A DNA stretch of 64,000 nucleotides from an uncultured virus (IMG/VR IMGVR_UViG_3300021256_003716). Its lineage: Duplodnaviria; Heunggongvirae; Uroviricota; Caudoviricetes. Below are positions 1,138 to 42,614 of this stretch, one piece after another. The DNA lies in the IMG/VR virus record IMGVR_UViG_3300021256_003716, one strand, 5' to 3'. Below the pieces are notes generated by a model. It saw only the letters and a program-made list of their open reading frames with translations, made no database searches and was not told the origin of the DNA. Within the stretch, counting starts at the first letter, position 1, and each line of letters opens with the position of its first letter. The position numbers were made by a program, and so were the translations under genes.

Positions 1138-1299
1138 AAAATTAAATGCTGTAGTAAAAGACTTACTTAGTTTCTATCCATTTTTTAGAAATATAGCTTA
1201 GGGGTCTAGAGCGCTGCTAGTAAATAGCAGAGACCTGGGTTCGAATCCCAGTTTAGTGCGTAAGCACTGTTAGTTTTTTGCGAATTTTGCTTTAATTTT
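1138..1299 (+). ncRNA. Y-RNA (YrlA)-like repeat, copy 1
   Basis: TGCTGTA..TACTTAG...TTTTGC closing stem enclosing tRNA-like D, anticodon and T arms. Confidence 0.65.
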
Positions 1300-2694: not shown

Positions 2695-3570
2695 GAGCCT
2701 TCGGGTTCAAACGGCTGGTTTCTGGTCGTTAAGATAAACCACGAATTCATAAGTGGCGAAAGTCATATTCGTAAAGGTATGGCGGTGGTTTTCCACTCTA
2801 TAAGAAAACAATATGTTCAAGGCGTAGTCGGCGTAATTCGATGGTGGTAATCACTGAGAATATAGACGCGTCGCGCGGGAGACAGACGCGCTTAGGCCAA
2901 GCTCCAAAGGCAAGGTTGAAAAAGATTGTGAGTAGAAAGCTTACAAATGAACGTATTTATCATCTAGGAAGAACGTGCAAAATTCTGATGGAGATGATAA
3001 CGAACTGTGTTGACGCTTAAGTGAAAATAAGAGATGTCGACTTAAGTAGATCTAGTAGTTTAGCAGACGAATGAAGAGAGGCGATTCACCTAAAGTACTC
3101 AAAAGGTACCATGGTGTTAAGTTCAACCTCGTCCCTCAAGGGTATGTGACCGAAGCAAATATTAGAAAATTAGCTCATCTGGATAGAGCACTCGCCTATT
3201 AAGCAAGATGTAGCTGGTTCAAGTCCAGCATTTTCTGCCAATATAAAGATATTATATAGCAAAAGTGTTGCGCACAATGAGATGAAAATAGCGTTATTCA
3301 ACTGTAATATGTTGATTTGGTGAGTACCGCAAGGAAAGTCAAGAAGGAGGGCGAAAGCCCATATCAAAGTAATCAACTGGTAAGAGCCTGCAAGCTCTGT
3401 ACTCCGCAAGAGGCTAGGGATGAAACGAGAACTTATAAGTCTTATTGTAGTGGGTAGATAACACCCTTAAGTTATTCGCTATGTGTTTTACTCTTAGAAA
3501 TAAGAGTGTGGTTAAGTTGGGAAACTGATGAGGATAAACACATTATAGGTCAATAAATCTCAGCCTATAA
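2695..3570 (+). ncRNA. GOLLD-like large ornate RNA
   Basis: About 870 nt without a convincing ORF, GC-richer, many GNRA/UUCG hairpins, ends in AATCTCAGCCT and contains an embedded tRNA. Family call is from recalled motifs. Confidence 0.55.
3164..3240 (+). tRNA. tRNA-Asn(ATT) embedded in the GOLLD-like RNA
   Basis: AGAAAAT/ATTTTCT, loop CTATTAA, encoded CCA. Confidence 0.75.
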
Positions 3571-13710: not shown

Positions 13711-14465
13711 AAATAATTAGTTTTTTGTACTTAGTCAAAGTAGGTTACATATTATAAAAGTTGATTAGATTTAGCAACTAATTAAAAATAAATATTTTAA
13801 TTACCTTTACATTTTTTGTAAATGCGCTAATTTAATAATATAAGATTTTTGATGATGTTTACATCATTAAAAATAAATCCTTTAAGGTTTTAAGGAGTCT
13901 GGTGAGCTTCTTATAGAAAACTTCCCACCAAGATATTTTTATATCGTTACCCTTCGGGGTAGGTAAAATGCCTGTGTCGCTTTTTTCCTATGATTGCAAA
14001 TTAAGGATAGTGACGTAGATGTAGGTTTACTTAGATAACTATAATACATTAATTCTTGAGTATTGATTGTCCTTCCGAGGATGATTCTCGTCTGAGTAAA
14101 CGATTTTTGTTGTAATGTTTAAGAAACTTTAATGAAAGCAATCTTTCTTAAAATAATCCAACAAGTCGGTTACCAGAAACTTTTTTGTTTATCAGGGAGT
14201 CAAATCTTTGATAAGCCATCGGATAAACTAGATTGTGGATAGTCGCTTGGGTTCACTACCTTAGCCCTTGTGGAAGGAGACTAGCAGTAAACTTTTCCTG
14301 ATAAGTGGTTTCAGTTTTGGGTTTACAATTTTTAACTAATTAAAATATTAAGTTTTATACTTAATAAAAATTGATTACATATTATAAATGTAAATCAATA
14401 AAAGATACTAATTAAAGTATCAATTGAATGGTTTTTAAGACCAAATTTTTTATAGGAGACAGAGC

Positions 14466-14594
14466 ATGAATACTTCTAAGAAGATTATTAAATCAGTTAC
14501 TCTTAGTGTAAAACCCGGCTGTGGGATTGTGCTACCATGTCTTAAAGGAATTTGGCAAAAGGAAGAGAGCTTAGAAACGAATTTAATTATCTAA
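14466..14594 (+). CDS. Attenuator leader peptide A (42 aa)
   Basis: AGGAG RBS; MNTSKKIIKSVTLSVKPGCGIVLPCLKGIWQKEESLETNLII. Confidence 0.75.
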   Translation: MNTSKKIIKSVTLSVKPGCGIVLPCLKGIWQKEESLETNLII

Positions 14595-14621
14595 AATAAG
14601 ATGTAATTAAAAAAGTTTTCT

Positions 14622-14651
14622 AGGCTCGGTTGAAAAAACTGAGCCTTTTTT
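14622..14651 (+). terminator. Attenuator A terminator
   Basis: AGGCTCGGTT-GAAAA-AACTGAGCCT plus T tract. The 5' arm can alternatively pair with 14567-14577. Confidence 0.8.
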
Positions 14652-14716
14652 ATTGGTAAAAGCTGCTAGACTTCCTTCCAGTCTTAGAAGTCGTTCACAA
14701 TGTTTTTGAAAATTAT

Positions 14717-14790
14717 GCATCATTAGCTCAGCTGGCTAGAGTGTCTGCCCTCCAAGCAGAATGTCGTCGGTTCGAATCCGACATGGTGCT
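14717..14790 (+). tRNA. tRNA-Gly(TCC)
   Basis: GCATCAT/ATGGTGC; TCTGC-CCTCCAA-GCAGA. Confidence 0.85.
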
Positions 14791-14792
14791 CT

Positions 14793-14908
14793 AAAAGAAT
14801 GCTGTAGAAGTGGTATACTTAGATTATAGGTTAATCATTTGAATGCTAATCAAACTTAAGCTGGTTCGAGTCCAGCAGTATAAAGCTGCTTCATTTTTTG
14901 CTTCTTTT
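14793..14908 (+). ncRNA. Y-RNA-like repeat, copy 3
   Basis: Conserved stem enclosing a canonical-order D / anticodon (GCT loop) / T cloverleaf. Confidence 0.65.
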
Positions 14909-14999
14909 GATTTTTATGAAAGATTCGACCAAAATCTTTCAAGACCTGTCAAGCTATTAAAGTAGGTTTGGTCGCTGAAAAGATAGCTTGATATTTTAT

Positions 15000-15071
15000 G
15001 TCACAGTCGTATAACGGTTATTACGTGGCCTTGCCAAGGCTGAAATGTGGTTTCGACTACCATCTGTGGCT
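15000..15071 (+). tRNA. tRNA-Gly(GCC)
   Basis: GTCACAG/CTGTGGC; loop TTGCCAA. Confidence 0.85.
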
Positions 15072-15168
15072 TATAGAGGAAAAACCGTCTGTAACCTCTT
15101 AAAAAACTTGTAGTCAATGGTAGTGGTGGACCTTAATCGAAACTGTTTAGCAGTTAAACCAACTCCAA

Positions 15169-15251
15169 CGGTTCGTGGCGTAATTGGCAGCCGCGTCAGA
15201 CTTAGGATCTGATGCTCTCCGAGCGTGTGGGTTCGACTCCCACCGAGCCGA
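15169..15251 (+). tRNA. tRNA-Leu(TAG)
   Basis: TCAGA-CTTAGGA-TCTGA, long variable arm. Confidence 0.9.
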
Positions 15252-15621
15252 CTAAAGGCGACTAATTGACGTGGTTTAAAAACCTACTCAGGTGGTCTTA
15301 ATGAAGCTTAAGTGTACTCCAGCCTGGATTAAAAGAAGGTGGCTGAAAGCCGGGAATAAACTCGTGTGGTTTTAGAATTCTTCCACATAAGGTAAATGCC
15401 TTAAGAGCAACAGCTCCCGTAGCTTGAGTGTGGATATATTGATTTAACACTCCCTGATAGGATGCTATAACTGAGTCCTAGGATAAGTAAACAGCAGGTT
15501 GTAATCTGTTTGAAGTATAGCAAATTTTTTAAGAATGCCAAAATTTATTTTACTGGCCTTCTTTAGTCTTTTCTTGGTATGTGGTAGTAAAAGGCACTTA
15601 TTTTAATATAGGAGAATGGAT

Positions 15622-15747
15622 ATGAGAAACGTAACTGTTAAAACAATTAAGATTACTCAGATTAAATACAACAAACCAGTTGTAATTAAACCCGTATGCC
15701 CATGGTGTCCTATTAAGGTATGGCCAGATTTGGAAGATTCTAAGTGA
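15622..15747 (+). CDS. Attenuator leader peptide B (41 aa)
   Basis: AGGAG RBS; MRNVTVKTIKITQIKYNKPVVIKPVCPWCPIKVWPDLEDSK. Confidence 0.8.
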   Translation: MRNVTVKTIKITQIKYNKPVVIKPVCPWCPIKVWPDLEDSK

Positions 15748-15783
15748 AATTTTTAATGATGCAAAATTAGAAGTTTGATTTAG

Positions 15784-15812
15784 AGTCTTTCAGGAAACTG
15801 AAAGACTTTTTT
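15784..15812 (+). terminator. Attenuator B terminator
   Basis: AGTCTTTCAG-GAAA-CTGAAAGACT plus T tract. Antiterminator 15730-15745/15778-15793. Confidence 0.85.
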
Positions 15813-15819
15813 ATTTTTA

Positions 15820-15891
15820 CGGCGACTGGGTCAGTAGTTGATCACTCGGCTTGGGACCGAGACCAGGGCGGAGCGTAACCGTCGTCGCCGA
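15820..15891 (+). tRNA. tRNA-Pro(TGG), atypical T loop
   Basis: CGGCGAC/GTCGCCG; CTCGG-CTTGGGA-CCGAG; T loop AGCGTAA. Confidence 0.75.
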
Positions 15892-16046
15892 TATAAAAGA
15901 AATGCTGTAAGATAAGAGTTACTTAGCTGTTGGAGCCGTGTGTCGTGGGTTCGAATCCTACTCTGCCGATTTTCGCCGGCAGATAGCTCAGTCTGGTAGA
16001 GCAACGAATAAAAAACTTTTATTTAGTTTTTGCTTTCTTTTTATAT
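15891..16046 (+). ncRNA. Y-RNA (YrlA)-like repeat, copy 4, with a circularly permuted tRNA domain
   Basis: T arm, then a closed acceptor stem TCTGCCG/CGGCAGA, then a D arm, all inside the conserved stem. Confidence 0.8.
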
Positions 16047-16132
16047 AGGTGTGTGGGTGAGTGGTCGAAACCAACAGTCTCCAAAACTGTCGTGATAAAT
16101 TCTCAACGCCTGTTCGAATCGGGCCGCACCTG
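16047..16132 (+). tRNA. tRNA-Trp(CCA), long variable region
   Basis: AGGTGTG/CGCACCT; ACAGT-CTCCAAA-ACTGT. Confidence 0.85.
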
Positions 16133-16137
16133 AAGCT

Positions 16138-16228
16138 AAGTAGTTGGACAAATTGGTAAAGTCGGCATTGTCCAAAGATGCTGTGTATGCGTACGATACA
16201 CTTATAGGTTCGAATCCTATACTACTTG
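16138..16228 (+). tRNA. tRNA-Trp(CCA), long variable arm
   Basis: AAGTAGT/ACTACTT; GCATT-GTCCAAA-GATGC; GTGTAT/ATACAC arm. Confidence 0.75.
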
Positions 16229-16236
16229 TAATATTT

Positions 16237-16308
16237 CGGAATGTGGGTCAAAGGTTGATCGCTGGTTTTGGGAACCAGATTATGTTAGTTCGAGTCTAAT
16301 CATTCCGA
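16237..16308 (+). tRNA. tRNA-Pro(TGG)
   Basis: CGGAATG/CATTCCG; CTGGT-TTTGGGA-ACCAG. Confidence 0.85.
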
Positions 16309-16484
16309 CTATTCCAAAAAGCGCTGGGAGAACATCCAGAAAAGTTTGGGCTAACACAAACCAAGTAAGGATGCCTAAGCGGAATGGTAACTTTGCTGTG
16401 ATTCTATGGCGTAGTTAGAGATGCTGTAGGCTGGTTAAGGAATAAGGCAACATAATAAGAGCCATGTTGATGAGGAATTTTTAT

Positions 16485-16561
16485 GCTAGTGTGGAAACAA
16501 ATTGGTAAAGTTACCACTCTGATAAAGTGGGAATGTGGTAGTTCAAGTCTATCCACTAGCA
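16485..16561 (+). tRNA. tRNA-Ile(GAT)
   Basis: GCTAGTG/CACTAGC; CCACT-CTGATAA-AGTGG. Confidence 0.85.
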
Positions 16562-16646
16562 CGTGCGTTATGAGTGGAAGGCCTCGCATGATAATGTGCT
16601 ATCTAGGGATTTTTCGGTAAACCTTAAAAATAACCGACCATTTTAC

Positions 16647-16720
16647 TGGACATGTTCTCGACGGTTTTTGGGAGCTGGTCTGATAAACCAGTACACGTAG
16701 TTCAACTCTACGGTGTCCAA
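16647..16720 (+). tRNA. tRNA-Ile(GAT)
   Basis: TGGACAT/GTGTCCA; CTGGT-CTGATAA-ACCAG. Confidence 0.75.
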
Positions 16721-16802
16721 GAGGAGCACGATTGAATAGGGGGCTTCTGAAACAAAAACCGCTATTTAGGGATTTTATGGTAAACCTTAAAAAAACCTAT
16801 TT

Positions 16803-16874
16803 GCTCCTTGTCCTCGACGGGTTGAGGAATAGTTTTACAAACTATCACACATTGTTCGACTCAATGAGGGAGTA
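16803..16874 (+). tRNA. tRNA-Val(TAC)
   Basis: ATAGT-TTTACAA-ACTAT; T arm CATTG/CAATG. Confidence 0.75.
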
Positions 16875-16882
16875 TATTATTT

Positions 16883-16953
16883 GTTCTATTCGTATAATGG
16901 TAGTACCTTAGCTTGACGTGCTAATGGCGGAAGTTCGATTCTTTCATAGAACA
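16883..16953 (+). tRNA. tRNA-Val(GAC)
   Basis: GTTCTAT/ATAGAAC; TTAGC-TTGACGT-GCTAA. Confidence 0.85.
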
Positions 16954-17114
16954 GCCTAAGGTTTCATCAGGTATCCAAAGATAGGCGGAAACTTGGTAGG
17001 TAGAAATACCTCTGAAAATATTGGGAGTTAACGTTACCCAATCTATGAGTAAGTTAAGTGAGTTTTCAGGTTTAGCACATTTTTGTGTTAAACTAGAAAT
17101 CTCAAAAATATTTT

Positions 17115-17186
17115 GGTCGGTTTGCCAAGTGGTAAGGCGGGTGGCTGCAACCCATCTATGCAGGTGTTCGATTCATCTACCGATCT
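17115..17186 (+). tRNA. tRNA-Cys(GCA)
   Basis: GGTCGGT/ACCGATC; loop CTGCAAC; U73. Confidence 0.9.
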
Positions 17187-17254
17187 TAATTTATGGCAGT
17201 TTAGCCAAGCGGCTCTTGCAGCGGTCTATACTTATTATTTTTACTAATTATTAT

Positions 17255-17926
17255 ATGAGTTTTAGTGAATATAACAAGAAAAGACAAAAAGACTGGTTTT
17301 GTGATGAATGTAATAAAACATTTAAAACACGTGTTGAATATCGTCAGCATCGTAAGGAAGTTAAGCATAAATCTGCTCATTCTAGGCCTTCTATAAATTG
17401 GACCTGTGAATATTGTGGATGTGAAAGGTTTTCTCCAAAGGGGTCTCAAACACTTCATATGAAATATTGCTTAGCTAATCCAAACCATATTCAGTGTATA
17501 GGACATAAAGTATTAGAAGAAACTAAAAATAAAATTTCTAAAGGTATGGTTCTAGTACATAAAGAAGGTCGTGCTAATGAATGGCAAGGTAGACGCGAGC
17601 GTAGCTATGCGGAACAAAGCTGGTATAATATTTTTACAAAGGATTTTGGTGAAGGCTCTTTTGCTAATAATTATTTTGTAAAGAAATATTGGCTTGATTT
17701 CGCTTGGCCTGAGAAAAAATTATATTTTGAAGTTGATGGCCGAACACACTTTACAGAAGAGGGACTTCTTCATGATAAAGAACGTACTGAGTTTCTTATT
17801 AGTGAGGGATGGACACTAATCGGTAGGTGTAATTGGTCAGAATACCAAAAATTATCTAAAGAAGATAAAGAGTCTTTTGTTAGGGCTATTGAAAATAAAA
17901 TTTTGGCCGTGAATCCGAATGGTTAG
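17255..17926 (+). CDS. Homing-endonuclease-like protein (zinc finger, NUMOD3-like, DUF559/Vsr-like nuclease)
   Basis: CDEC..H..H, EETKNKIS, YWLDFAW..YFEVDGRTH. Inserted inside a tRNA array. Confidence 0.8.
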   Translation: MSFSEYNKKRQKDWFCDECNKTFKTRVEYRQHRKEVKHKSAHSRPSINWTCEYCGCERFSPKGSQTLHMKYCLANPNHIQCIGHKVLEETKNKISKGMVLVHKEGRANEWQGRRERSYAEQSWYNIFTKDFGEGSFANNYFVKKYWLDFAWPEKKLYFEVDGRTHFTEEGLLHDKERTEFLISEGWTLIGRCNWSEYQKLSKEDKESFVRAIENKILAVNPNG

Positions 17927-17977
17927 GTAGCAAGTCTGCAAAACTTGTTGTTGAGGGTTCGAATCCCTCCGCGGTCT
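17905..17977 (+). tRNA. tRNA-Cys(GCA)
   Basis: CAAGT-CTGCAAA-ACTTG; overlaps the endonuclease stop codon. Confidence 0.85.
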
Positions 17978-18034
17978 TTATAAAATGACGGTGGTGGGTT
18001 CGAATCCCACCCCCGCCTCTTAAAGGAGACTTTT

Positions 18035-18190
18035 ATGGATTGTGGCATGGTAATAATAAATGGGCCTATGGCTGAAAGAATTTATAATGCTATGCTAGAA
18101 TCATCTGAAAAATCTAAATCTAATAAGGAAAAGCGTGAAAAGCGTTTAAGAGAGTTTGAAGAACGTATGAAGAAGAAACAGAGGGCTTAA
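18035..18190 (+). CDS. Small hypothetical protein (51 aa)
   Basis: AAGGAG RBS; below the track cut-off. Confidence 0.55.
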   Translation: MDCGMVIINGPMAERIYNAMLESSEKSKSNKEKREKRLREFEERMKKKQRA

Positions 18191-18259
18191 CCTTCTATTC
18201 AGTCCATTGGAATTGAAGGTGCCCAGTTAAATGGAACAAGACATTTTCAATTTTTTAAT

Positions 18260-18331
18260 GGGCTGTTAGGAAAGCGGATAATCCACTGGTCTTTTAAACC
18301 AAGTAGCCGGGTTCAACCCCCGGACAGCTCA
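18260..18331 (+). tRNA. tRNA-Lys(TTT)
   Basis: GGGCTGT/ACAGCTC; loop CTTTTAA. Confidence 0.8.
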
Positions 18332-18339
18332 TCTTTTAA

Positions 18340-18428
18340 GGGCACGTTCCGATAGTAGGTTTAATCGACCAGACTTTTAATCTGGAGAGGCTTGTTCCTC
18401 ATCGTGGGTCCGAATCCCACCGTGCTCA
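18340..18428 (+). tRNA. tRNA-Lys(TTT), long variable arm
   Basis: CCAGA-CTTTTAA-TCTGG; GAGG/CCTC arm. Confidence 0.8.
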
Positions 18429-18435
18429 TTTTTAC

Positions 18436-18527
18436 GGGCGTGTTAGTATAGCCAGGTCGAATACAGCAGACTCTTAATCTGCCGGAGCATTGTTTCTCCC
18501 ACGTGAGTTCAAATCTCACCACGCTCA
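18436..18527 (+). tRNA. tRNA-Lys(CTT), long variable arm
   Basis: GCAGA-CTCTTAA-TCTGC; GGAG/CTCC arm. Confidence 0.85.
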
Positions 18528-18531
18528 TTTT

Positions 18532-18606
18532 TAGCCCATAGCTCAAGTAGTTAGAGCAGCGCCCATTTAAGGCGTCAGGTTCTTAGTGCAAGTCTAAGTG
18601 GGCTAA
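18532..18606 (+). tRNA. tRNA-Lys(TTT)-like
   Basis: TAGCCCA/TGGGCTA; loop CATTTAA with A33. Confidence 0.65.
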
Positions 18607-18653
18607 ATCTTTATAAATGTGAAACAATATACCAGTATATTGCATATTTATTA

Positions 18654-25283: not shown

Positions 25284-25417
25284 CTAAAAATAAATATATT
25301 TTTATTAAAAGTCTTTCAGTAATGAAAGACTTTTTTTATACTTGGTGAATAAAACCAACATATAATATAAGTAAAAAATTTTTAGTTAGGTTTTTTAGAA
25401 GAGGCTATTATTATAAT

Positions 25418-25609: not shown

Positions 25610-25782
25610 ACACTAGTCTTCTGTACCACTTTTAGGGACTTGGTGAAAAAGGTAGTAAGCCTAAAAGTCCTGAAGACCTTCGACAAATTACAATCGGTTA
25701 AAGTTGTCAAAAGGAGAAAACCGTGCTAACTAATCACGGAGGCTGTTAGTCCTCAGCTATATCAAAAGGACATTATTTTTAT

Positions 25783-25940
25783 GTTTTGAGTAAGCAGAAC
25801 TGGTATATGCGCTCTGGTCCCTTGAAATAATAGGGGCGAATAATCATAATGGCAACATTATGGGGCCTCAGTGGCCGGAGGCGACATAAGCGACTCTAGT
25901 AGCCGAAATGTATTGTAGGTTCGAATCCTGCCTTGAAACC
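25783..25940 (+). ncRNA. tRNA-like RNA with a multi-hairpin insert in place of the anticodon loop
   Basis: GTTTTGAG/CTTGAAAC ends, D loop AACTGGTATA, CTCTGGTC/GGCCGGAG stem, T arm GTAGG-TTCGAAT-CCTGC. Confidence 0.55.
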
Positions 25941-26244
25941 TTTGCAATTATAAGTCTGAAAGGAAAGAAGAGTTGGCAACTCTCGTAATCTTGTGCAAGT
26001 GCGTAAAAAACACCCAGAGATTCAAGTGAGAAACGAAAAAACTTCCAAGTAGGAGAGGGAGAGTGGTGCTAGCCACGACCACACACTCAAGTAAGTTGCT
26101 GCTTATCTGGATGAAAGTTAATATCCTGTTGGGAATTTGCGAGCCCATAAAAAGACTGAAGTAACGAGGTCATACCGAAGGAAACAGACAACGATGCACG
26201 TGATACAATTGCGTAGCTAACACGTAAAATAAGACTGGGCACCA

Positions 26245-26318: not shown

Positions 26319-26716
26319 TAAAATGGGATTCTAGCGTGCTTTGGCATGCATGTGAATAGCGACGTCTAGCACGTCTCCCAAGGTATGTTCCGACCTGGCT
26401 TATCTATCAGAATTTGGGGCGAAGATAAGAGATACGAACACCTAGGAAAATTTATGTAGGAGTTATTAAAAGTATGCCAGTTAAGTGGGTAACCCGCTTC
26501 TGGAGGACTACCAAGGCGTGGCCTGCATTTCGACGGAAATGTACCGACCGGTGAAGGTGCTAGTTAGAACCAGATAATTTCTAGCTGACTTGAATGTCAA
26601 CCATAGACCTTGCGAGCTGAGTGCGTGCATTACGAGCGCTCTTAAAGCAGCCAAATTGCATCGGGCATTCCTTTTTAATTATATGGAGATTTTCGCTTAT
26701 GACTTATCATTAGGTT

Positions 26717-29673: not shown

Positions 29674-30465
29674 ATGAAGATTGAAGATGTTAAGAAAGTT
29701 CGTGAAATTACAGGCGCAGGCCTTTCTGATTGTAAAACTGCTTTGGAAAAAGCAAATGGCAATGTAGATGAAGCAGTTAAGGTTCTTCAGAAAGAAGGCC
29801 TTGCAGCATCAAATGCTCGTGCACAGCGAGCTACTTCAGAAGGTCGTATTTTTACTCATGTTGAAGATAATGTTGTTACAATGTATGCAGTTAAATGTGA
29901 AACTGACTTTGTAGCTAATAGTGAGGATTTTAAGAATATTGGAAAATGCGTTGATGATGGTGAAACTCTTGGAGCTGTAATTGATAGACTTAAAATTTCT
30001 ATGCGTGAAAATATTCAGCCAGGAAATTTTGTCAAAGTTCCTTTTGACTTAAATGATATTGGCTCAACCTATATTCACTCAGATGGTAAGTCAGGTGCGG
30101 TAGTTCTTATTGAAGGAGTAGATCCTGCTAAAGTAGAAAGTGCAAAGGTTTTTGCTCATGATGTTTGTTTGCATATGGTAGCATTTAATCCACTGTATAT
30201 TTCAGTAGATGATGTTTCCCCTTCTGTTGTTAGTGAAAAACGCGAAATTTTTGCAGCTCAGATGGATAACGATCCAAAAATGACAAATAAGCCAGAAAAT
30301 GTAAAAGCTGGAATTCTTCAGGGTAAACTTAAAAAAGCTATTTCAGAACTTTGTTTGCTTAGCCAGCCATTTGTAAAGGATGATAAAAATACAACATCTT
30401 ATGTACTAGCTCGTGAGTGTGGACCTAATGCAAAAATTAGAGAAGCTAAACTTATTCAGCTTTAA
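29674..30465 (+). CDS. tsf: Translation elongation factor Ts
   Basis: VKKVREITGAGLSDCKTAL, CETDFVA, YIH, LHMVAFNP, KPENV..GK. Confidence 0.95.
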   Translation: MKIEDVKKVREITGAGLSDCKTALEKANGNVDEAVKVLQKEGLAASNARAQRATSEGRIFTHVEDNVVTMYAVKCETDFVANSEDFKNIGKCVDDGETLGAVIDRLKISMRENIQPGNFVKVPFDLNDIGSTYIHSDGKSGAVVLIEGVDPAKVESAKVFAHDVCLHMVAFNPLYISVDDVSPSVVSEKREIFAAQMDNDPKMTNKPENVKAGILQGKLKKAISELCLLSQPFVKDDKNTTSYVLARECGPNAKIREAKLIQL

Positions 30466-32621: not shown

Positions 32622-32735
32622 ATGACTAGAAACGTTAGTTTATTACAGTTTAGTTTTCTCAGCCAGATGCACTTTAGCTTGCATCAGTTCTTTATGCTCT
32701 TATGTGAAGGGGCTAATCGGAATAGTATTAAGTGA
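32622..32735 (+). CDS. Attenuator leader peptide C (37 aa)
   Basis: AGGAG RBS; MTRNVSLLQFSFLSQMHFSLHQFFMLLCEGANRNSIK. Confidence 0.85.
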   Translation: MTRNVSLLQFSFLSQMHFSLHQFFMLLCEGANRNSIK

Positions 32736-32774: not shown

Positions 32775-32809
32775 AGCCCTTTCAGGAAAGATTCTTGAAA
32801 GGGTTTTTT
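32775..32809 (+). terminator. Attenuator C terminator
   Basis: AGCCCTTTCAGGAA-AGA-TTCTTGAAAGGGTT plus T tract. Antiterminator strand at 32705-32723. Confidence 0.85.
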
Positions 32810-33313: not shown

Positions 33314-33388
33314 TAAAGAAATGCTGTAGTATAAGAGATACTTAGACTTAAAATCCAAAATACTCTTATTCAATTTTTGCTTTCTTTA
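33314..33388 (+). ncRNA. Y-RNA-like repeat, copy 5 (minimal)
   Basis: Conserved stem with an anticodon-loop-like insert GA-CTTAAAA-TC. Confidence 0.6.
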
Positions 33389-33472: not shown

Positions 33473-33619
33473 CAAAAATATGCTGTAGAAGAAGACTTAC
33501 TTAGGTAATGATATCTTTTGAAACAGGAAAATCTAATTGGTTCAAATCCAATAAGGGTAAGTGGTTACTGATACCCTTAAAGTGACAAAATAAAGTTTTC
33601 TTCATTTTTGCTATTTTTG
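33473..33619 (+). ncRNA. Y-RNA-like repeat, copy 6
   Basis: Conserved stem; T arm followed by a closed 7-bp AAGGGTA/TACCCTT stem. Confidence 0.65.
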
Positions 33620-37389: not shown

Positions 37390-37975
37390 AACAAGAAAAA
37401 GTTCTAAAAATCCGTCGGAAATTTTAAGGTGGCGTGAATACCTTAGATCAAGTCTATCGCGTTAAAATTATTAGTAAAAAGTAGAGGTGCGAATCCTCGG
37501 TCGCTCTGTAAAGGGCCACCAAGTCTAAGTCATAACTTAATGTAAAAGACTTTCTAATGTTAGTTACCAGTGGAAAGCTGGCTGCGAGCGAGTTTGATGA
37601 TTTTTGTGGCAACGAGTTTATGGATAAATAAGCGAAAGCTGAATAAAATAGTTCATAGTACCAGCGATGCCAGATATAGCTCAGATAACATACCATATAA
37701 ATCGACTTCGTGTGCGTGTTGGTAATAAAGTTAAGAGCAGCACACTCTTAATGTGCGTGTCGGTGCAAGTTGTTAAGCATCTAACTGGAATCGGTAAAAG
37801 CTCAGAGTCTGTAGCACTAGAAACAATGAGCATGAATGCCAAATAACGGTTCGAAACTAATCCACAATTTTTAGTTTCATTGATAGTTTTACCAATATGC
37901 TACTAGGAAGCTTAAAAGTGCCGATGTGGAGTCAGGCGTTGATATTTAAGCAAAAGAAAAACTACAGGAAAGGTT
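37390..37975 (+). ncRNA. ROOL-like large RNA
   Basis: About 580 nt with GAGGTGCGAATCCTC, TATAGCTCAGATAAC and AAAGCTCAGA..GTAGCAC segments recalled from ROOL. tRNA-island context. Boundaries approximate. Confidence 0.55.
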
Positions 37976-38596
37976 AAATTTATATAGGGACGATAAAGTC
38001 CCTTATTTTGGAATAAGTCGTAACGAGTATTTCTTGTGCAAATAAGACCTCCATTGTGAAAAAAGACTGCTGTATTATATGAGTCATTTGGCCGTAATAC
38101 GGAGTTGGTTAGCCGAGCTGAAATTGATGCATCGAGTAAGCTCAGAGAAAGGATAAGACAAAGTGCATAGTCGTCTAAATGGGAGGGCGCACTCTGAAAG
38201 AGGAGTGAATATGGGTTCGAATCCCATTTATGCTTTGAAGCGCCAGAAAATAACGGACCAAGTGTTAAGTATAGGTCTGGTAGACCGTATAAAGTGCCCG
38301 CTTGGATAGCGGCCGTGACGAGAAGGCTGGGACCTATAACGCCTCATTAGCTTGTTAAACTAAAAGACGCTATACGAGTTGTATATTAGGGTGATTGCAA
38401 CACGAGAGGGTGAAGCTTAAGCCACAAAAATCCCTAATTTTTAAAAGCTGTGTGAGACGAGGAAGTTCCTCTCAATAGCCACAGTAGCTAGCTCGGCTAG
38501 TGGAGCCCCAATTTTTGGGGCGTTATTGTTAATATAAAATTATTAGAATTTTTGAGAAAATACTAATTAAATATAAATTTTAATAAGGAGACGAAA

Positions 38597-38689
38597 ATGG
38601 TAATACGTAGCAGACAAATTCAACAAATAATACGTCAAAATTGTACATATACTAGTTCGTCTTTAATTTTTAAAGTGGTTAAGAAGTAA
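38597..38689 (+). CDS. Attenuator leader peptide D (30 aa)
   Basis: AAGGAG RBS; MVIRSRQIQQIIRQNCTYTSSSLIFKVVKK, with ATA x3 and CAA x4. Confidence 0.75.
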   Translation: MVIRSRQIQQIIRQNCTYTSSSLIFKVVKK

Positions 38690-38721
38690 TCAATTAAAAA
38701 TAATAAAAATATTTTATCATA

Positions 38722-38752
38722 GGCGAACTAGAAATAGTTCGCCATTTTTTTT
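38722..38752 (+). terminator. Attenuator D terminator
   Basis: GGCGAACTA-GAAA-TAGTTCGCC-A-T8. Antiterminator strand at 38652-38662. Confidence 0.8.
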
Positions 38753-38765
38753 GGAAAATTTAATT

Positions 38766-39056
38766 ATGAAATATGATAGATATGCAAAACCTACAAAACC
38801 TTTTATGGTAATACATTATGGAACATCAACTTATAAGGTATTCAAAAGTCTAGAAAGGGCAACAGATTTTGCTATAAAATATTCCAAAAAAGTGCGAGAC
38901 TTTGTTTATTTAACAGAGCCAGTTTTGAAAAGTGATGGTTATAGGTGTGTAATTAAGGAAACCTATAAAGACGGAATATTTATTGATGCAAGTAAAGGTG
39001 CAATTTTATTACATTATATCTTTTATTATTTTGCATCAAAAAAGGGAAAGGAATAA
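38766..39056 (+). CDS. Hypothetical protein
   Basis: ORF track. Confidence 0.6.
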   Translation: MKYDRYAKPTKPFMVIHYGTSTYKVFKSLERATDFAIKYSKKVRDFVYLTEPVLKSDGYRCVIKETYKDGIFIDASKGAILLHYIFYYFASKKGKE

Positions 39057-39059
39057 TAT

Positions 39060-40235
39060 ATGTTTGATATAAATGGAAAATATGGCTCAGCAAAAGTTTA
39101 TGCGGAAACAATTGATGATGCTTGTATTTCACAGATTTATGGATTTTTAAATAATCCTATTACAGAAAATGTAAAAGTAGCAGTAATGCCAGATGCTAAT
39201 GTTGGCAAAGGCAGTACAGTTGGTTTTACACAAGAAATTAAAGATAAAGTAAATCCAAGTATGGTCAGTGTTGATATTGGATGTGGCATGTTGGTATGCA
39301 AAGTATCTAAAGAATATCATATGGATTTACCAAAGTTAGATAAAGTAATTCACCAGCAAATTCCTAGTGGCTTAAAGCACTGTGATAAGGTAAGCCTTTT
39401 TGCTAAGAATATCGACTTAAAAGGTCTTATTGCGGATGTAAATTACAATAAGGAAATTTTAGGTCTTTCATCACTCGGAGGTGGTAACCACTTCATTGAG
39501 GTAGATAAAGATCAAGAAGGTGATTACTATATTGTAATCCATTCTGGATCAAGACACTTAGGTGTTGCAGTTTGTGAGTATTGGGAAAAAGTAGCTAATA
39601 ATTTTCATAAGAAGCTAGCGGTAAAGAAATCAGAGTTGATTAATGCTAAAAATGAAAAAGCGTTAGCAGAATTGCCACCAGTAGTAACTTCTTATGGATT
39701 ATCTTATTTAATGGGAGAAGACCTAAAAGGTTATCTACATGATATGAAGATTACACAGGAGTTTGCAAGGCTTAACCGTGAAGCAATGCTTGATGTAATT
39801 CTTACTGAAATGGGAATTAAGAAGCGATATATTTTGGATAAGTTTTGTACTATCCATAATTATATCGACTTAAATAAAATGGTTTTAAGAAAGGGCGCAA
39901 TTTCTCTTGAAAAAGGTGAAAGAGCAATAATTCCAATTTCTATGGCATATGGCTCTTTAATTGTAGAAGGCAAAGGAAACCCTGATTGGAACTTTTCTGG
40001 ACCACATGGGGCAGGAAGACTTTTATCAAGGTCAGACGCTAAAAATTCTATTTCTATGGAAGACTATAAGAAATCTATGGAAGGAATTTATACAACTTGC
40101 GTAAAAGCTTCAACAGTAGATGAGTCACCAATGGCTTATAAAAATCCTGATGAGATTATTAGAGCTATTGATGGTACAGCAACAATTATAAAGACAATAC
40201 ACCCTATTTATAACTTTAAGGCCGGTAGTGATTAA
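39060..40235 (+). CDS. rtcB: RtcB RNA ligase (2',3'-cyclic phosphate / 5'-OH)
   Basis: MPD, DIGCG, GGGNHF, HSGSR, HNY, RKGA, HGAGR, DESPMAYK. Confidence 0.95.
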   Translation: MFDINGKYGSAKVYAETIDDACISQIYGFLNNPITENVKVAVMPDANVGKGSTVGFTQEIKDKVNPSMVSVDIGCGMLVCKVSKEYHMDLPKLDKVIHQQIPSGLKHCDKVSLFAKNIDLKGLIADVNYNKEILGLSSLGGGNHFIEVDKDQEGDYYIVIHSGSRHLGVAVCEYWEKVANNFHKKLAVKKSELINAKNEKALAELPPVVTSYGLSYLMGEDLKGYLHDMKITQEFARLNREAMLDVILTEMGIKKRYILDKFCTIHNYIDLNKMVLRKGAISLEKGERAIIPISMAYGSLIVEGKGNPDWNFSGPHGAGRLLSRSDAKNSISMEDYKKSMEGIYTTCVKASTVDESPMAYKNPDEIIRAIDGTATIIKTIHPIYNFKAGSD

Positions 40236-40527
40236 AATGGAAAGACCTAGAATTAAGTTTAAGAACTTTTGGTTATGGTTTAGCGATCAGGTATTACGTA
40301 AGAAAGCTTTTTATAACTTTTTTATAAGTAAAAATGCCTGGGGTGCTTTTAGTATCAACTCACATATTAGGGGTGATAATCAGCAACCAAAAGTTACATA
40401 TAATACTAAAAAATCTGCGCTTAAAGCGGCAGAAAGTATGGGTAAAAAGTATAATAAACATTTTTCAGTGTATAAATGTTTATTCTGTGATGGATATCAT
40501 ATTGGAAAAAATATGAATAATAAATAA
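40228..40527 (+). CDS. Hypothetical zinc-binding protein
   Basis: YKCLFCDGYHIG. Confidence 0.65.
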   Translation: MIKMERPRIKFKNFWLWFSDQVLRKKAFYNFFISKNAWGAFSINSHIRGDNQQPKVTYNTKKSALKAAESMGKKYNKHFSVYKCLFCDGYHIGKNMNNK

Positions 40528-40583
40528 CGTTTATAAATATAAACAAAATATAGCATAACGTTTGTTTTTACAAACGTTATCAC

Positions 40584-40657
40584 ACTCCAGTAGCTCAGCA
40601 GTCAGTAGCAGCATCCTTATAAGTTGTTGGTCGGTGGTGCAATTCCATCCTGGAGTA
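40584..40657 (+). tRNA. tRNA-Ile(TAT)
   Basis: ACTCCAG/CTGGAGT; loop CTTATAA. Confidence 0.75.
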
Positions 40658-40747
40658 TCTGAGGTAAACGGTAATTGGTACCCGCCCTGGCTTTGAACCA
40701 GTAGCGACCCAAAAGTTGCTCTGCAGGTCCGAATCCTGCCCTCAGAA
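40658..40747 (+). tRNA. tRNA-Gln(TTG), long variable arm
   Basis: TCTGAGG/CCTCAGA; loop CTTTGAA; AGCGAC/GTTGCT arm. Confidence 0.8.
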
Positions 40748-40759
40748 TATAAAACTTTT

Positions 40760-40788
40760 GAACCATAGCATAAGCTATGGTTCTTTTT
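40760..40788 (+). terminator. Intrinsic terminator ending the rtcB-tRNA unit
   Basis: GAACCATAGC-ATAA-GCTATGGTTC plus T tract. Confidence 0.8.
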
Positions 40789-41831: not shown

Positions 41832-42434
41832 ATGATTGAACTTAGAGAAAATAAAGAAAAAGATGACTTTGCTAAAGGTCGCGTTTTAATTTGGGATAAG
41901 CTACCTCGCATTCATAAACTTTGGAAAAATGAATCGGAACGCCTTAAATTAGAATGTGCAATAATGCTGGATAATCAAACTTCATTTTTAGCTAGATTAT
42001 CTGATGATCAGCTTGATGATTTATTAGAAAAGCATCATTTTGAATCAGCTGAAGAATGTTTAGAAAATGTAATTCAGCTTTATAAAGATTTTTCTAAAAA
42101 AGAAAATCTTGATGTAGTTGCATTACAAACTGGAAGGGATGCTATACCATATAGAAATGCTGTTAGAGATGCTGATTATATGGTTTCATGTCGTGAAACG
42201 TCCTATGAAGCTATAGATGTAGTACTTAAAGCTGCCAAGCATGCAGTTTTAGGTATATTGGTTCCATTTATGACCTCTAGGCAAAATAAACCTTGTATGT
42301 TTGCAGACTGGTTTTTGAGCGATATAAAAAAAGATGCGGATGCATCAGCGTTAATTGAGCCATTACCAGAAGGTGCCCAAGCAGCTATTTATGAGAGTGA
42401 TGAACCTTACAAAAGTGAAGAAAGCTTTAAGTAA
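41832..42434 (+). CDS. Hypothetical protein
   Basis: ORF track. Confidence 0.7.
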   Translation: MIELRENKEKDDFAKGRVLIWDKLPRIHKLWKNESERLKLECAIMLDNQTSFLARLSDDQLDDLLEKHHFESAEECLENVIQLYKDFSKKENLDVVALQTGRDAIPYRNAVRDADYMVSCRETSYEAIDVVLKAAKHAVLGILVPFMTSRQNKPCMFADWFLSDIKKDADASALIEPLPEGAQAAIYESDEPYKSEESFK

Positions 42435-42470: not shown

Positions 42471-42563
42471 ATGACAATGGTAAGAACAAACAGAACAATT
42501 ACTCGTCGTAGACGTATCACACGTCGTAGATATGTCATGTCTTTATGCGAACTCCAGATTTAA
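42471..42563 (+). CDS. Attenuator leader peptide E (30 aa)
   Basis: GGAG RBS; MTMVRTNRTITRRRRITRRRYVMSLCELQI. Confidence 0.8.
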   Translation: MTMVRTNRTITRRRRITRRRYVMSLCELQI

Positions 42564-42587: not shown

Positions 42588-42614
42588 AGGCAGTTCGCAA
42601 GAACTGCCTTTTTT
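42588..42614 (+). terminator. Attenuator E terminator
   Basis: AGGCAGTTC-GCAA-GAACTGCCT plus T tract. Antiterminator strand at 42546-42553. Confidence 0.85.

What the first reader, a model, noticed from the sequence alone, without database searches (positions are those of the whole stretch)
15610..18606. Attenuator B: Pro/Trp/Ile/Val/Cys/Lys leader ahead of a matching tRNA array
The stretch KPVVIKPVCPWCPIKVWP is 18 consecutive codons from {K,P,V,I,C,W}. The array is Pro x2, Trp x2, Ile(GAT) x2, Val(TAC, GAC), Cys x2 and Lys x4. All Ile codons are ATT. A 16-bp antiterminator (15730-15745 with 15778-15793) sequesters the whole 5' arm of the terminator and overlaps the stop codon, so a ribosome reaching the stop would block it.
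Basis: partly seen in the sequence, partly recalled or inferred. Interest (0 to 1): 0.9.

Follow-up and report, generated by a model that had tools for sequence, protein, structure and literature searches.

The report
Leader-peptide attenuator gating phage tRNA genes
A tiny translated test gene, spelled almost entirely in the codons read by the tRNA genes behind it, sits in a switchable transcription stop signal of an uncultured jumbo phage. The phage probably makes these tRNAs only when ribosomes run short of them, a control known for amino-acid genes but not found in print for tRNA genes.

Summary
A Shine-Dalgarno-led 41-codon ORF (15622-15747) holds an 18-codon run made only of K, P, V, I, C and W. 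This is the longest such run in all six frames of the window; the next is 9. An intrinsic terminator (15783-15808 plus T-tract) follows, then an array Pro, Trp x2, Pro, Ile(GAT) x2, Val(TAC), Val(GAC), Cys x2, Lys x4.

The 16-bp antiterminator is real: -18.1 kcal/mol against -7.8 +/- 1.9 for shuffles. It is nearly isoenergetic with the terminator state. Masking a ribosome footprint at the stop codon abolishes it.

It is not alone. The window has four more such units (A, C, E, D), and related jumbo-phage contigs have others, each leader matching its own array. Across 16 units, permuting arrays among leaders never reached the observed match (0 of 100,000). Codon choice also fits the anticodons. 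In 8 orthologues of unit B the reading frame, stop position and helix are kept, and leader composition follows array content.

Best reading: ribosome-mediated attenuation that feeds decoding speed back onto tRNA supply. No experiment exists. Seven literature searches found no description. Earlier AI notes of this scan report the same kind of element on other phage DNA. I class it as a new variant of a known kind.

The parts
14358..14385 (+). Phage promoter motif TACTT-N14-ACATATTAT that probably drives units A and B. B has no such motif of its own.
   Evidence: 27 matches with up to 2 mismatches against 5.0 +/- 2.1 in shuffles. The listed exact (0-mismatch) copies are all on the + strand and include 14358 and 32544.
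14466..14594 (+). Leader A ORF (42 codons). Its run LSVKPGCGIVLPCLKGIW covers both array A's and array B's amino acids.
14622..14646 (+). Terminator A hairpin, followed by tRNA Gly, a Y-RNA-like module, Gly and Leu (14717-15252).
15610..15615 (+). Shine-Dalgarno AGGAGA of leader B, 6 nt before the ATG.
15622..15747 (+). Leader B ORF, 41 codons plus TGA.
   Evidence: The frame and stop column are kept in 8 of 8 orthologues.
15673..15726 (+). Regulatory run KPVVIKPVCPWCPIKVWP (18 codons).
15730..15745 (+). Antiterminator 5' arm. It lies in the last codons of the ORF and overlaps the stop codon.
15747..15776 (+). Inner A/U-rich hairpin (11 bp) that extends the antiterminator to a 27-bp two-part stem.
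   Evidence: -34.9 kcal/mol, z = -5.95.
15778..15793 (+). Antiterminator 3' arm. It contains the whole terminator 5' arm.
15783..15818 (+). Intrinsic terminator B: 11-bp stem, GAAA loop, T-tract TTTTTTATTTTT. It ends 1-2 nt before tRNA-Pro.
15820..18607 (+). Regulated array: Pro, YrlA-like RNA, Trp, Trp, Pro, Ile(GAT)-like, Ile(GAT), Val(TAC), Val(GAC), Cys, DUF559 endonuclease ORF, Cys, small ORF, Lys x4.
32622..32735 (+). Leader C with the run SLLQFSFLSQMHFSLHQFFMLL. Terminator at 32775-32805. Array Phe, Leu, Phe, His, Leu, His, Leu, Gln(CTG), Met, Gln(CTG), Ser(GCT).
38597..38689 (+). Leader E (IRSRQIQQIIRQ; Ile ATA x3, Gln CAA x4). Terminator at 38722-38744. Then ORF, RtcB, ORF, tRNA-Ile(TAT) and tRNA-Gln(TTG).
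42471..42563 (+). Leader D (RTNRTITRRRRITRRR). Terminator at 42588-42609. Array Arg, Arg, Arg, Thr, Arg.

Best explanation
Unit B is a ribosome-mediated (leader-peptide) transcription attenuator that gates a block of phage tRNA genes.

Transcription, most likely from the promoter at 14358 after read-through of attenuator A, enters leader B and a ribosome translates it. If aminoacyl-tRNAs for Lys, Pro, Val, Ile, Cys and Trp are plentiful, the ribosome reaches the TGA at 15745. Its footprint then covers 15730-15760, so the antiterminator cannot form. The terminator (15783-15808 plus T-tract) forms and the array stays silent.

If any of these tRNAs is scarce or damaged, the ribosome stalls inside 15673-15715. 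The 16-bp helix 15730-15745 x 15778-15793, extended by an inner hairpin, then sequesters the terminator's 5' arm, and RNA polymerase runs on into Pro...Lys. The tRNAs made relieve the stall, so the loop is self-limiting.

Shown: the sequence elements, the energetics, the statistics and the conservation. Inferred: that the ORF is translated, that termination occurs and depends on ribosome position, and the physiological trigger.
For: (1) Anatomy. SD, ORF, codon run and a terminator ending 1-2 nt before tRNA-Pro.

(2) Switch. The RNA made before the terminator's 3' arm (15700-15797) folds into a 27-bp two-part hairpin of -34.9 kcal/mol, z = -5.95, with 0 of 200 shuffles as good. The forced antiterminator state is -35.5 kcal/mol and the terminator state -34.7 to -36.6, so the switch is bistable. 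Masking 15730-15760 gives a full 12-bp terminator. A-site stalls at 15673-15712 leave the full 16-bp helix; a stall at 15724 leaves only 8 bp.

(3) Recurrence. I took 16 non-redundant units of longest ATG ORF, terminator of -11 kcal/mol or stronger, and array of 3 or more tRNAs. They come from the window and the contigs G001-G003. In 15 of 16, leader residues are enriched in the array's amino acids at binomial P < 5e-3; B scores 27 of 42 at p0 = 0.28, P = 1.3e-6. The own array ranks first for 13 of 16. The diagonal sum of Z is 76.4 against 6.8 +/- 8.3 in permutations, reached in 0 of 100,000.

(4) Codon level. 256 of 306 in-set codons are cognate to an array anticodon under strict wobble, against 227.7 +/- 5.8 expected from codon usage (0 of 200,000 simulations). 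Ile is ATT x7 with Ile(GAT) in B but ATA x3 with Ile(TAT) in E. Gln is CAG x3 with Gln(CTG) in C but CAA x4 with Gln(TTG) in E.

(5) Antiterminators. 14 of 17 units have one better than shuffles (z <= -2.2). In 12 of 17 the 5' arm overlaps the stop codon or ends within 4 nt of it.

(6) Orthologues of B. Eight sequences sharing the terminator stem were compared. All 8 keep an SD-led open frame with the stop in the same alignment column. Within the run of the G002-type leaders, changes are synonymous or stay within the set. Out-of-set changes fall in the first four codons, plus one in the C-terminal tail (F to L, inside the helix). The 14 inner helix pairs are paired in 8 of 8. Leaders gain S, A, G and R where the array gains Ser, Ala, Gly and Arg (G002, L088, L111). 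They gain H and F where it gains His and Phe (L131).

(7) Weak. Contigs from RNA libraries of two studies bridge terminator A (X13 14521-14695, X8 14433-14860), but DNA carry-over is not excluded. Variants in DNA runs across leader B fall in the 5' UTR, the N-terminal codons, a synonymous Pro position and the hairpin loop. None falls in the helices.
Against: There is no direct evidence of leader translation, of 3' ends at the T-tract, or of any response to tRNA supply.

Covariation in the helix is weak: 1 compensatory and 4 one-sided changes, with 61 of 500 shuffles as good.

B has no promoter motif of its own. Its leader would therefore be translated from a long precursor that already carries tRNAs.

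Stalls at the last codons of the run (A site at 15724) would mask the antiterminator rather than free it.

No protector (1:2-type) helix was seen, so an untranslated leader should read through, unlike trp.

The codon match is imperfect. Pro CCC and CCT are not cognate to Pro(TGG) under strict wobble. In unit D all 5 Thr codons (ACA x4, ACT) are non-cognate to the only Thr tRNA there, CGT.

One of 16 units matches poorly (G001 9295, P = 0.045). Three of 17 antiterminators are no better than shuffles.

Some array members are atypical or rest on one program only.

A related jumbo phage, G004, has a 36-tRNA array with no such leader.
Confidence: 0.8

Rival explanations
1. The leader does sense decoding, but the output is not set by the antiterminator/terminator switch. 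Stalling or uncoupling would instead change Rho access, RNase cleavage or precursor stability. The hairpin plus T-tract would be a leaky constitutive terminator that merely lowers array expression.
For: No termination data exist. Helix covariation is weak. B lacks its own promoter. In 5 of 17 units the antiterminator arm lies 11-24 nt upstream of the stop, where a ribosome at the stop would cover it poorly.
Against: 14 of 17 units carry an antiterminator stronger than shuffles, and it is aimed exactly at the terminator's 5' arm. The two states are isoenergetic and are toggled by ribosome masks. The stop column and helix are kept in 8 of 8 orthologues.
Confidence: 0.1
2. Reverse logic: a stalled ribosome favours termination, so the phage shuts the array off when translation is poor, or the leader serves only to couple transcription with translation.
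For: Stalls at the last codons of the run (A site near 15724) leave the terminator arm free.
Against: Stalls with the A site at 15673, 15688, 15700 or 15712, all four positions modelled in that part of the run, leave the full antiterminator intact. A codon-matched leader makes no sense for a shut-off, and the geometry repeats in other units.
Confidence: 0.05
3. Coincidence or an ordinary micro-protein gene: the ORF is an unrelated small gene, or is untranslated, ahead of a terminator that ends the upstream unit.
For: Short ORFs are common in AT-rich DNA. The peptide has no family match because it is too short to search.
Against: The 18-run is unique in six frames. No permutation reached the observed match (0 of 100,000). 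Codon-level enrichment was reached in 0 of 200,000 simulations. Composition tracks array content among orthologues.
Confidence: 0.02

Closest known systems
Multivalent leader-peptide attenuators of enterobacterial amino-acid operons (ilvGMEDA with Ile/Leu/Val codons, thr with Thr/Ile; also trpL, hisL, leuL, pheL). Named from recall; pheL is seen only in the listing and abstract of PMC3082878.
   Same: A short SD-led ORF with a run of regulatory codons for several amino acids, an intrinsic terminator, a competing antiterminator, and ribosome position as the signal.
   Different: The regulated genes are tRNA genes, not biosynthetic enzymes, so the product relieves the stall directly. Six amino acids are sensed in one 18-codon run. 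No 1:2 protector helix was found. The antiterminator arm sits in the last codons and overlaps the stop. Units are chained (A then B). The host is a phage.
pheM leader of the E. coli pheST (Phe-tRNA synthetase) operon (recall, not checked in a paper here).
   Same: Attenuation by a codon-rich leader controls a component of the decoding machinery.
   Different: It controls a synthetase for one amino acid, not the tRNAs themselves, and it is chromosomal.
T-box riboswitches
   Same: They gate downstream genes through a terminator/antiterminator choice in response to tRNA status.
   Different: A T-box binds uncharged tRNA directly and needs no translation. No T-box model matched here. T-boxes control synthetase, biosynthesis and transporter genes.
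Leader attenuators before phage tRNA arrays noted earlier by this scan on other genomes (e1-2978539, e1-5886956, e1-5943215 and others; AI notes).
   Same: The same architecture and reading: a codon-matched leader, a terminator and a tRNA array in phages.
   Different: They lie on other DNA. No look-alike stretch of this window is on record. Here there are five units in one window, one nested in another and one gating RtcB.

Membership tests
Leader-peptide (ribosome-mediated) transcription attenuators | Short ORF with a ribosome-binding site directly upstream of the regulated genes | tested here: met
   AGGAGA at 15610-15615 and ATG at 15622, 41 codons. The frame is kept in 8 of 8 orthologues.
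Leader-peptide (ribosome-mediated) transcription attenuators | Run of codons for the amino acid(s) tied to the regulated product | tested here: met
   18 of 18 codons come from the array's six amino acids, the longest such run in six frames. Permutation test reached in 0 of 100,000.
Leader-peptide (ribosome-mediated) transcription attenuators | Intrinsic terminator between the leader and the first regulated gene | tested here: met
   11-12 bp stem at 15783-15808 plus T-tract, -14.9 kcal/mol.
Leader-peptide (ribosome-mediated) transcription attenuators | Antiterminator structure mutually exclusive with the terminator | tested here: met
   15730-15745 x 15778-15793, -18.1 against -7.8 +/- 1.9 kcal/mol, 0 of 300 shuffles as good. 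The states are isoenergetic.
Leader-peptide (ribosome-mediated) transcription attenuators | Geometry such that a stalled ribosome and a terminating ribosome select different structures | tested here: met
   Footprint masks. A ribosome at the stop gives the terminator. A-site stalls at 15673-15712 give the antiterminator. This is in silico only.
Leader-peptide (ribosome-mediated) transcription attenuators | Protector/pause helix (1:2 of trp) that enforces termination without translation | tested here: not met
   No stable partner for 15730-15745 was found upstream in the folds. This helix is a feature of trp-type members, not of all members.
Leader-peptide (ribosome-mediated) transcription attenuators | Regulated genes encode amino-acid biosynthesis enzymes or synthetases | tested here: not met
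   tRNA genes and non-coding RNAs lie downstream. This is why I call it a new variant.
Leader-peptide (ribosome-mediated) transcription attenuators | Termination shown to depend on leader translation and aminoacyl-tRNA supply | not testable with these tools
   This needs in vitro or in vivo assays.
T-box riboswitch | Match to the T-box model (specifier loop and T-box sequence) | tested here: not met
   No T-box hit in the Rfam scans at E <= 1 or E <= 0.1.
PyrG leader (RF02371) | Score at or above the Rfam gathering threshold | tested here: not met
   28.8 bits against a threshold of 65, E = 0.84, at 15746-15817. This is a chance likeness of a hairpin plus terminator.

The most novel reading that the evidence does not exclude
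The phage carries a multi-channel sensor of tRNA-pool integrity, and unit B is one channel. Each channel tests a defined subset of codons and, when decoding of that subset fails, switches on replacement tRNAs. The failure could arise from host anticodon nucleases or other tRNA-targeting defences. In channel E the output also includes the RNA repair ligase RtcB. Channels are wired in series: leader A also tests B's codons, so both terminators must be passed for B's array to be made from the promoter at 14358. Because no protector helix exists, any collapse of translation would also open the gates. The system would thus be a general 'translation is failing' alarm and a counter-defence device.
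Probability: 0.35. Interest if true: 0.95.

Novelty: new variant of a known kind. Interest (0 to 1): 0.87.

Why it matters
If it works as read, tRNA genes can be put under direct feedback from decoding speed, codon by codon. Seven full-text searches found no description of this. A term search in one key paper on phage tRNAs (PMC10264068) also found nothing.

It would change how phage tRNA arrays are seen. They would be on-demand sets rather than constitutive codon supplements. That bears on the current debate on phage tRNAs as a counter to tRNA-cleaving defences (PMC10264068, PMC11555353, PMC12409363; listings and abstract starts only).

There are practical gains too:
- The leader predicts which tRNAs belong to one transcription unit, and so the identity of odd tRNAs.
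- These units are natural, compact, codon-specific sensors of translation speed for synthetic biology.
- The leader-array rule gives a simple computational screen for more cases.

Tried and rejected
- Phage records: only 54-nt tRNA-Pro matches.
- The window's whole genome is not held.
- The search for related loci with the AAA ATPase and with ORF 41832-42434 found no relatives. RtcB worked.
- Loci L011-L080 gave no terminator-plus-array unit, so they say nothing either way.
- G004 (RtcB 51% identical) has a 36-tRNA array behind a sigma-70-like promoter and no leader. The design is therefore not universal.
- The metagenome pattern scan gave 105 stretches. Of the 80 loci read, only 6 have a tRNA behind the hairpin; the rest are unrelated terminators. 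The records of L131 and L111 are not held, so L131's array could not be extended.
- Helix covariation tests are not significant: 153 of 500 and 61 of 500 shuffles as good.
- The RNA-library contigs laid (X8, X13) do not cover leader B or terminator B. I draw no conclusion from that. All runs were contigs, so no RNA ends or levels could be read.
- Unit D's antiterminator is no better than shuffles with my standard arm definition (z = -0.3). With the loop included, a -15.1 kcal/mol helix appears, but I ran no shuffle control for it.
- The weak PyrG-leader hit is rejected.
- My first promoter pattern used the wrong spacing and gave chance-level hits. It was corrected.
- The ARAGORN 'tRNA-Ser(GCT)' at 14813-14884 overlaps a Y-RNA-like module and may not be a real tRNA. 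This weakens the Ser part of leader A's match.


Full report
**What the window is.** The 64-kb window looks like part of an uncultured AT-rich jumbo phage.
- It has 41 ARAGORN tRNA calls, all on the + strand.
- It encodes RtcB (phrog_1075, E = 1e-119), an EF-Ts homologue, an NAPRTase and an acetyl-CoA carboxylase carboxyltransferase.
- It has a GOLLD-like RNA and YrlA-like RNAs.
- A promoter motif, TACTT-N14-ACATATWAT, occurs 27 times with up to 2 mismatches, against 5.0 +/- 2.1 in shuffles.
- No whole genome is held and no close phage record exists.
- Runs that hold parts of the stretch are mostly labelled as gut metagenomes of animals.

**The observation.** It stands as written.
- AGGAGA lies at 15610-15615 and the ATG at 15622. 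The 41-codon ORF ends at TGA 15745-15747.
- Codons 18-35 (15673-15726) read KPVVIKPVCPWCPIKVWP. All 18 are from {K,P,V,I,C,W}, a set with background frequency 0.282.
- This is the longest such run in all six frames of the window; the next is 9.
- All 7 Ile codons are ATT.
- The terminator (stem 15783-15808, GAAA loop, T-tract to 15818) ends 1-2 nt before tRNA-Pro at 15820.

**The array.** It is Pro, Trp, Trp, Pro, Ile(GAT), Val(GAC), Cys, Cys and Lys x4 by default ARAGORN.
- Val(TAC) at 16803-16874 appears only at a relaxed threshold.
- A second Ile(GAT) at 16491-16556 is seen only by the Rfam tRNA model.
- The array also holds a YrlA-like RNA (15923-16029), a DUF559/zinc-finger endonuclease ORF (17255-17926) and a small ORF.

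**The switch.**
- The 16-bp helix 15730-15745 x 15778-15793 has a duplex energy of -18.1 kcal/mol, against -7.8 +/- 1.9 for 300 dinucleotide shuffles of the upstream RNA; 0 of 300 are as good.
- Before the terminator's 3' arm exists, 15700-15797 folds into this helix stacked on an 11-bp inner hairpin: -34.9 kcal/mol, z = -5.95.
- With the terminator's 3' arm present, the forced antiterminator state (-35.5) and terminator state (-34.7; free MFE -36.6) are nearly equal. The choice must therefore be kinetic and ribosome-dependent.
- Masking 15730-15760, a ribosome at the stop, gives a full 12-bp terminator.
- Removing the RNA covered by a ribosome whose A site is at 15673, 15688, 15700 or 15712 leaves the full antiterminator. 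At 15724 only 8 bp remain.
- I found no protector helix, so an untranslated leader should read through.

**Four more units in the window**.

| Unit | Leader ORF | Key run | Array behind the terminator |
|---|---|---|---|
| A | 14466-14594 | LSVKPGCGIVLPCLKGIW | Gly, a Y-RNA-like module, Gly, Leu, then unit B |
| C | 32622-32735 | SLLQFSFLSQMHFSLHQFFMLL (22 codons, next-longest run 12) | Phe, Leu, Phe, His, Leu, His, Leu, Gln, Met, Gln, Ser |
| E | 38597-38689 | IRSRQIQQIIRQ | an ORF, RtcB, an ORF, tRNA-Ile(TAT), tRNA-Gln(TTG) |
| D | 42471-42563 | RTNRTITRRRRITRRR | Arg, Arg, Arg, Thr, Arg |

- A and C have the promoter motif; B, D and E do not.
- Leader A also contains B's amino acids, as expected if B is fed by read-through of A.
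- 34 of the 41 ARAGORN tRNAs lie behind these five leaders.

**Relatives.** RtcB brought in IMG/VR loci, and I fetched the tRNA regions of four large contigs. A fixed pipeline was run on them. It combined ARAGORN, a hairpin-plus-T-run finder, and the longest ATG ORF ending within 130 nt upstream. I kept terminators of -11 kcal/mol or stronger with arrays of 3 or more tRNAs, and dropped L003 as a near-duplicate. This gave 16 units in the window, G001, G002 and G003.
- In 15 of 16, leader residues are enriched for the array's amino acids at P < 5e-3. The exception is G001 9295, at P = 0.045.
- Examples: MKSLSLQCQLLSSSLLSWCLLSS... before Trp, Leu x3, Gln, Cys, Ser, Leu; ...NTTTNPTNNNP... before Asn x2, Pro x3, Thr x2; ...GYSYYMMGYS... 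before Tyr x2, Met x2, Ser x2.
- Permuting arrays among leaders: the diagonal sum of Z is 76.4 against 6.8 +/- 8.3, reached in 0 of 100,000. The own array ranks first in 13 of 16.
- At codon level, 256 of 306 in-set codons are cognate under strict wobble, against 227.7 +/- 5.8 expected (0 of 200,000).
- Ile is ATT with Ile(GAT) in B and ATA with Ile(TAT) in E. Gln is CAG with Gln(CTG) in C and CAA with Gln(TTG) in E.
- 14 of 17 units (the 16 plus E) have an antiterminator better than shuffles. In 12 of 17 its 5' arm overlaps the stop or ends within 4 nt of it.

**Orthologues of B.** Pattern scans for the terminator stem found L088 in IMG/VR. In metagenomes, 6 of the 80 loci read have tRNAs behind the hairpin.
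- In the alignment of 8 sequences, every one has an SD-led open frame whose stop sits in the same column.
- The 14 inner pairs of the helix are paired in 8 of 8. There is 1 compensatory and 4 one-sided changes, too few for a significant covariation score (61 of 500).
- Within the run of the G002-type leaders, changes are synonymous or stay inside the set. Out-of-set changes lie in the first four codons, with one more in the tail.
- Composition follows content. G002-type leaders add S, A, G and R, and their arrays add Ser, Ala, Gly and Arg. The L131-type leader adds H and F, and its array has His and Phe.

**Points against.**
- No functional data exist.
- B has no promoter of its own.
- Stalls at the last regulatory codons would be counter-productive.
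- The codon match fails for Thr in D and for Pro CCC/CCT under strict wobble.
- Three antiterminators are unconvincing.
- Some tRNAs are atypical.
- G004 has a long array without any leader.
- RNA-library contigs bridge terminator A but cannot show transcript ends, and may include DNA.

**Comparison and novelty.** The element works like a multivalent leader-peptide attenuator. It differs in what it controls (tRNA genes, and in unit E an RNA ligase), in the direct feedback this creates, in lacking a protector helix, in the chaining of units, and in being viral.
- T-box and PyrG-leader models do not fit.
- Seven full-text searches, plus a term search in PMC10264068, found no description of attenuation of tRNA genes. 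Subscription-only papers are outside that library.
- This scan's earlier AI notes report the same kind of unit in at least 66 other genomes, none on DNA like this window. I treat them as leads, not support.

**Verdict.** I put the probability that unit B is a functional ribosome-mediated attenuator of the tRNA array at about 0.8. It is a new variant of a known kind, of high interest.

Noticed in passing
window 1146-1170, 14799-14822, 15902-15926, 33321-33345, 33480-33504: Five copies of a module ATGCTGTA-N9/10-TACTTAG (0 expected by chance). Each starts about 10 nt after a tRNA. The one at 15923-16029 matches Rfam YrlA (Y RNA-like) at 46.4 bits, below the threshold of 69. No Ro/TROVE protein was seen among the ORFs scanned. 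The ARAGORN 'tRNA-Ser' at 14813-14884 is probably the tRNA-like domain of one of these modules.
   Followed up: partly
window 3076-3566: GOLLD-like large RNA (78.8 bits, E = 1e-18, below the gathering score of 150) that encloses tRNA-Asn(ATT) at 3164-3240. L088 has a 73%-identical stretch.
   Followed up: no
window 38597-40760: Leader E and its terminator gate an operon holding the RNA ligase RtcB (39060-40235), two small ORFs, tRNA-Ile(TAT) and tRNA-Gln(TTG). An RNA-repair enzyme may thus be induced by poor decoding of ATA and CAA.
   Followed up: partly
window 29674-30465: Phage-encoded elongation factor Ts homologue (PF00889, E = 5e-36) with a short N-terminal piece like the L7/L12 C-terminal domain.
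   Followed up: no
window 17190-18020: A DUF559 and C2H2 zinc-finger endonuclease ORF (17255-17926) sits between two tRNA-Cys copies. Its 3' end overlaps the second copy. tRNA-half-like fragments lie at about 17190-17230 and 17985-18015. This looks like a homing-endonuclease insertion that duplicated its target.
   Followed up: no
window 38163-38236: ARAGORN calls a tRNA with a four-base anticodon (AAAG), i.e. an 8-nt loop. Its function is unknown.
   Followed up: no
window 16046-16229 and 18340-18527: Two tRNA-Trp and two tRNA-Lys calls are 88-93 nt long, with extra arms or inserts. Trp 16137-16229 is not seen by the Rfam model.
   Followed up: no
window 25309-25335: A terminator with nearly the same stem as terminator B (GTCTTTCA...TGAAAGAC) ends an ordinary 166-aa ORF and is followed at once by a promoter motif at 25339. 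The hairpin sequence is therefore reused outside attenuators.
   Followed up: no
window 15253-15600, 16310-16480, 25610-26240, 26320-26700, 37900-38560: Long GC-richer stretches between tRNAs have no ORFs and look like structured RNAs. RNA-library contigs cover 15295-15523. None matched an Rfam family.
   Followed up: no
L086 (G004) 800-1240: A related jumbo phage heads its 36-tRNA array with a sigma-70-like promoter (TTGACA...TATAAT) and a GC-rich structured leader, but no codon-matched ORF.
   Followed up: partly
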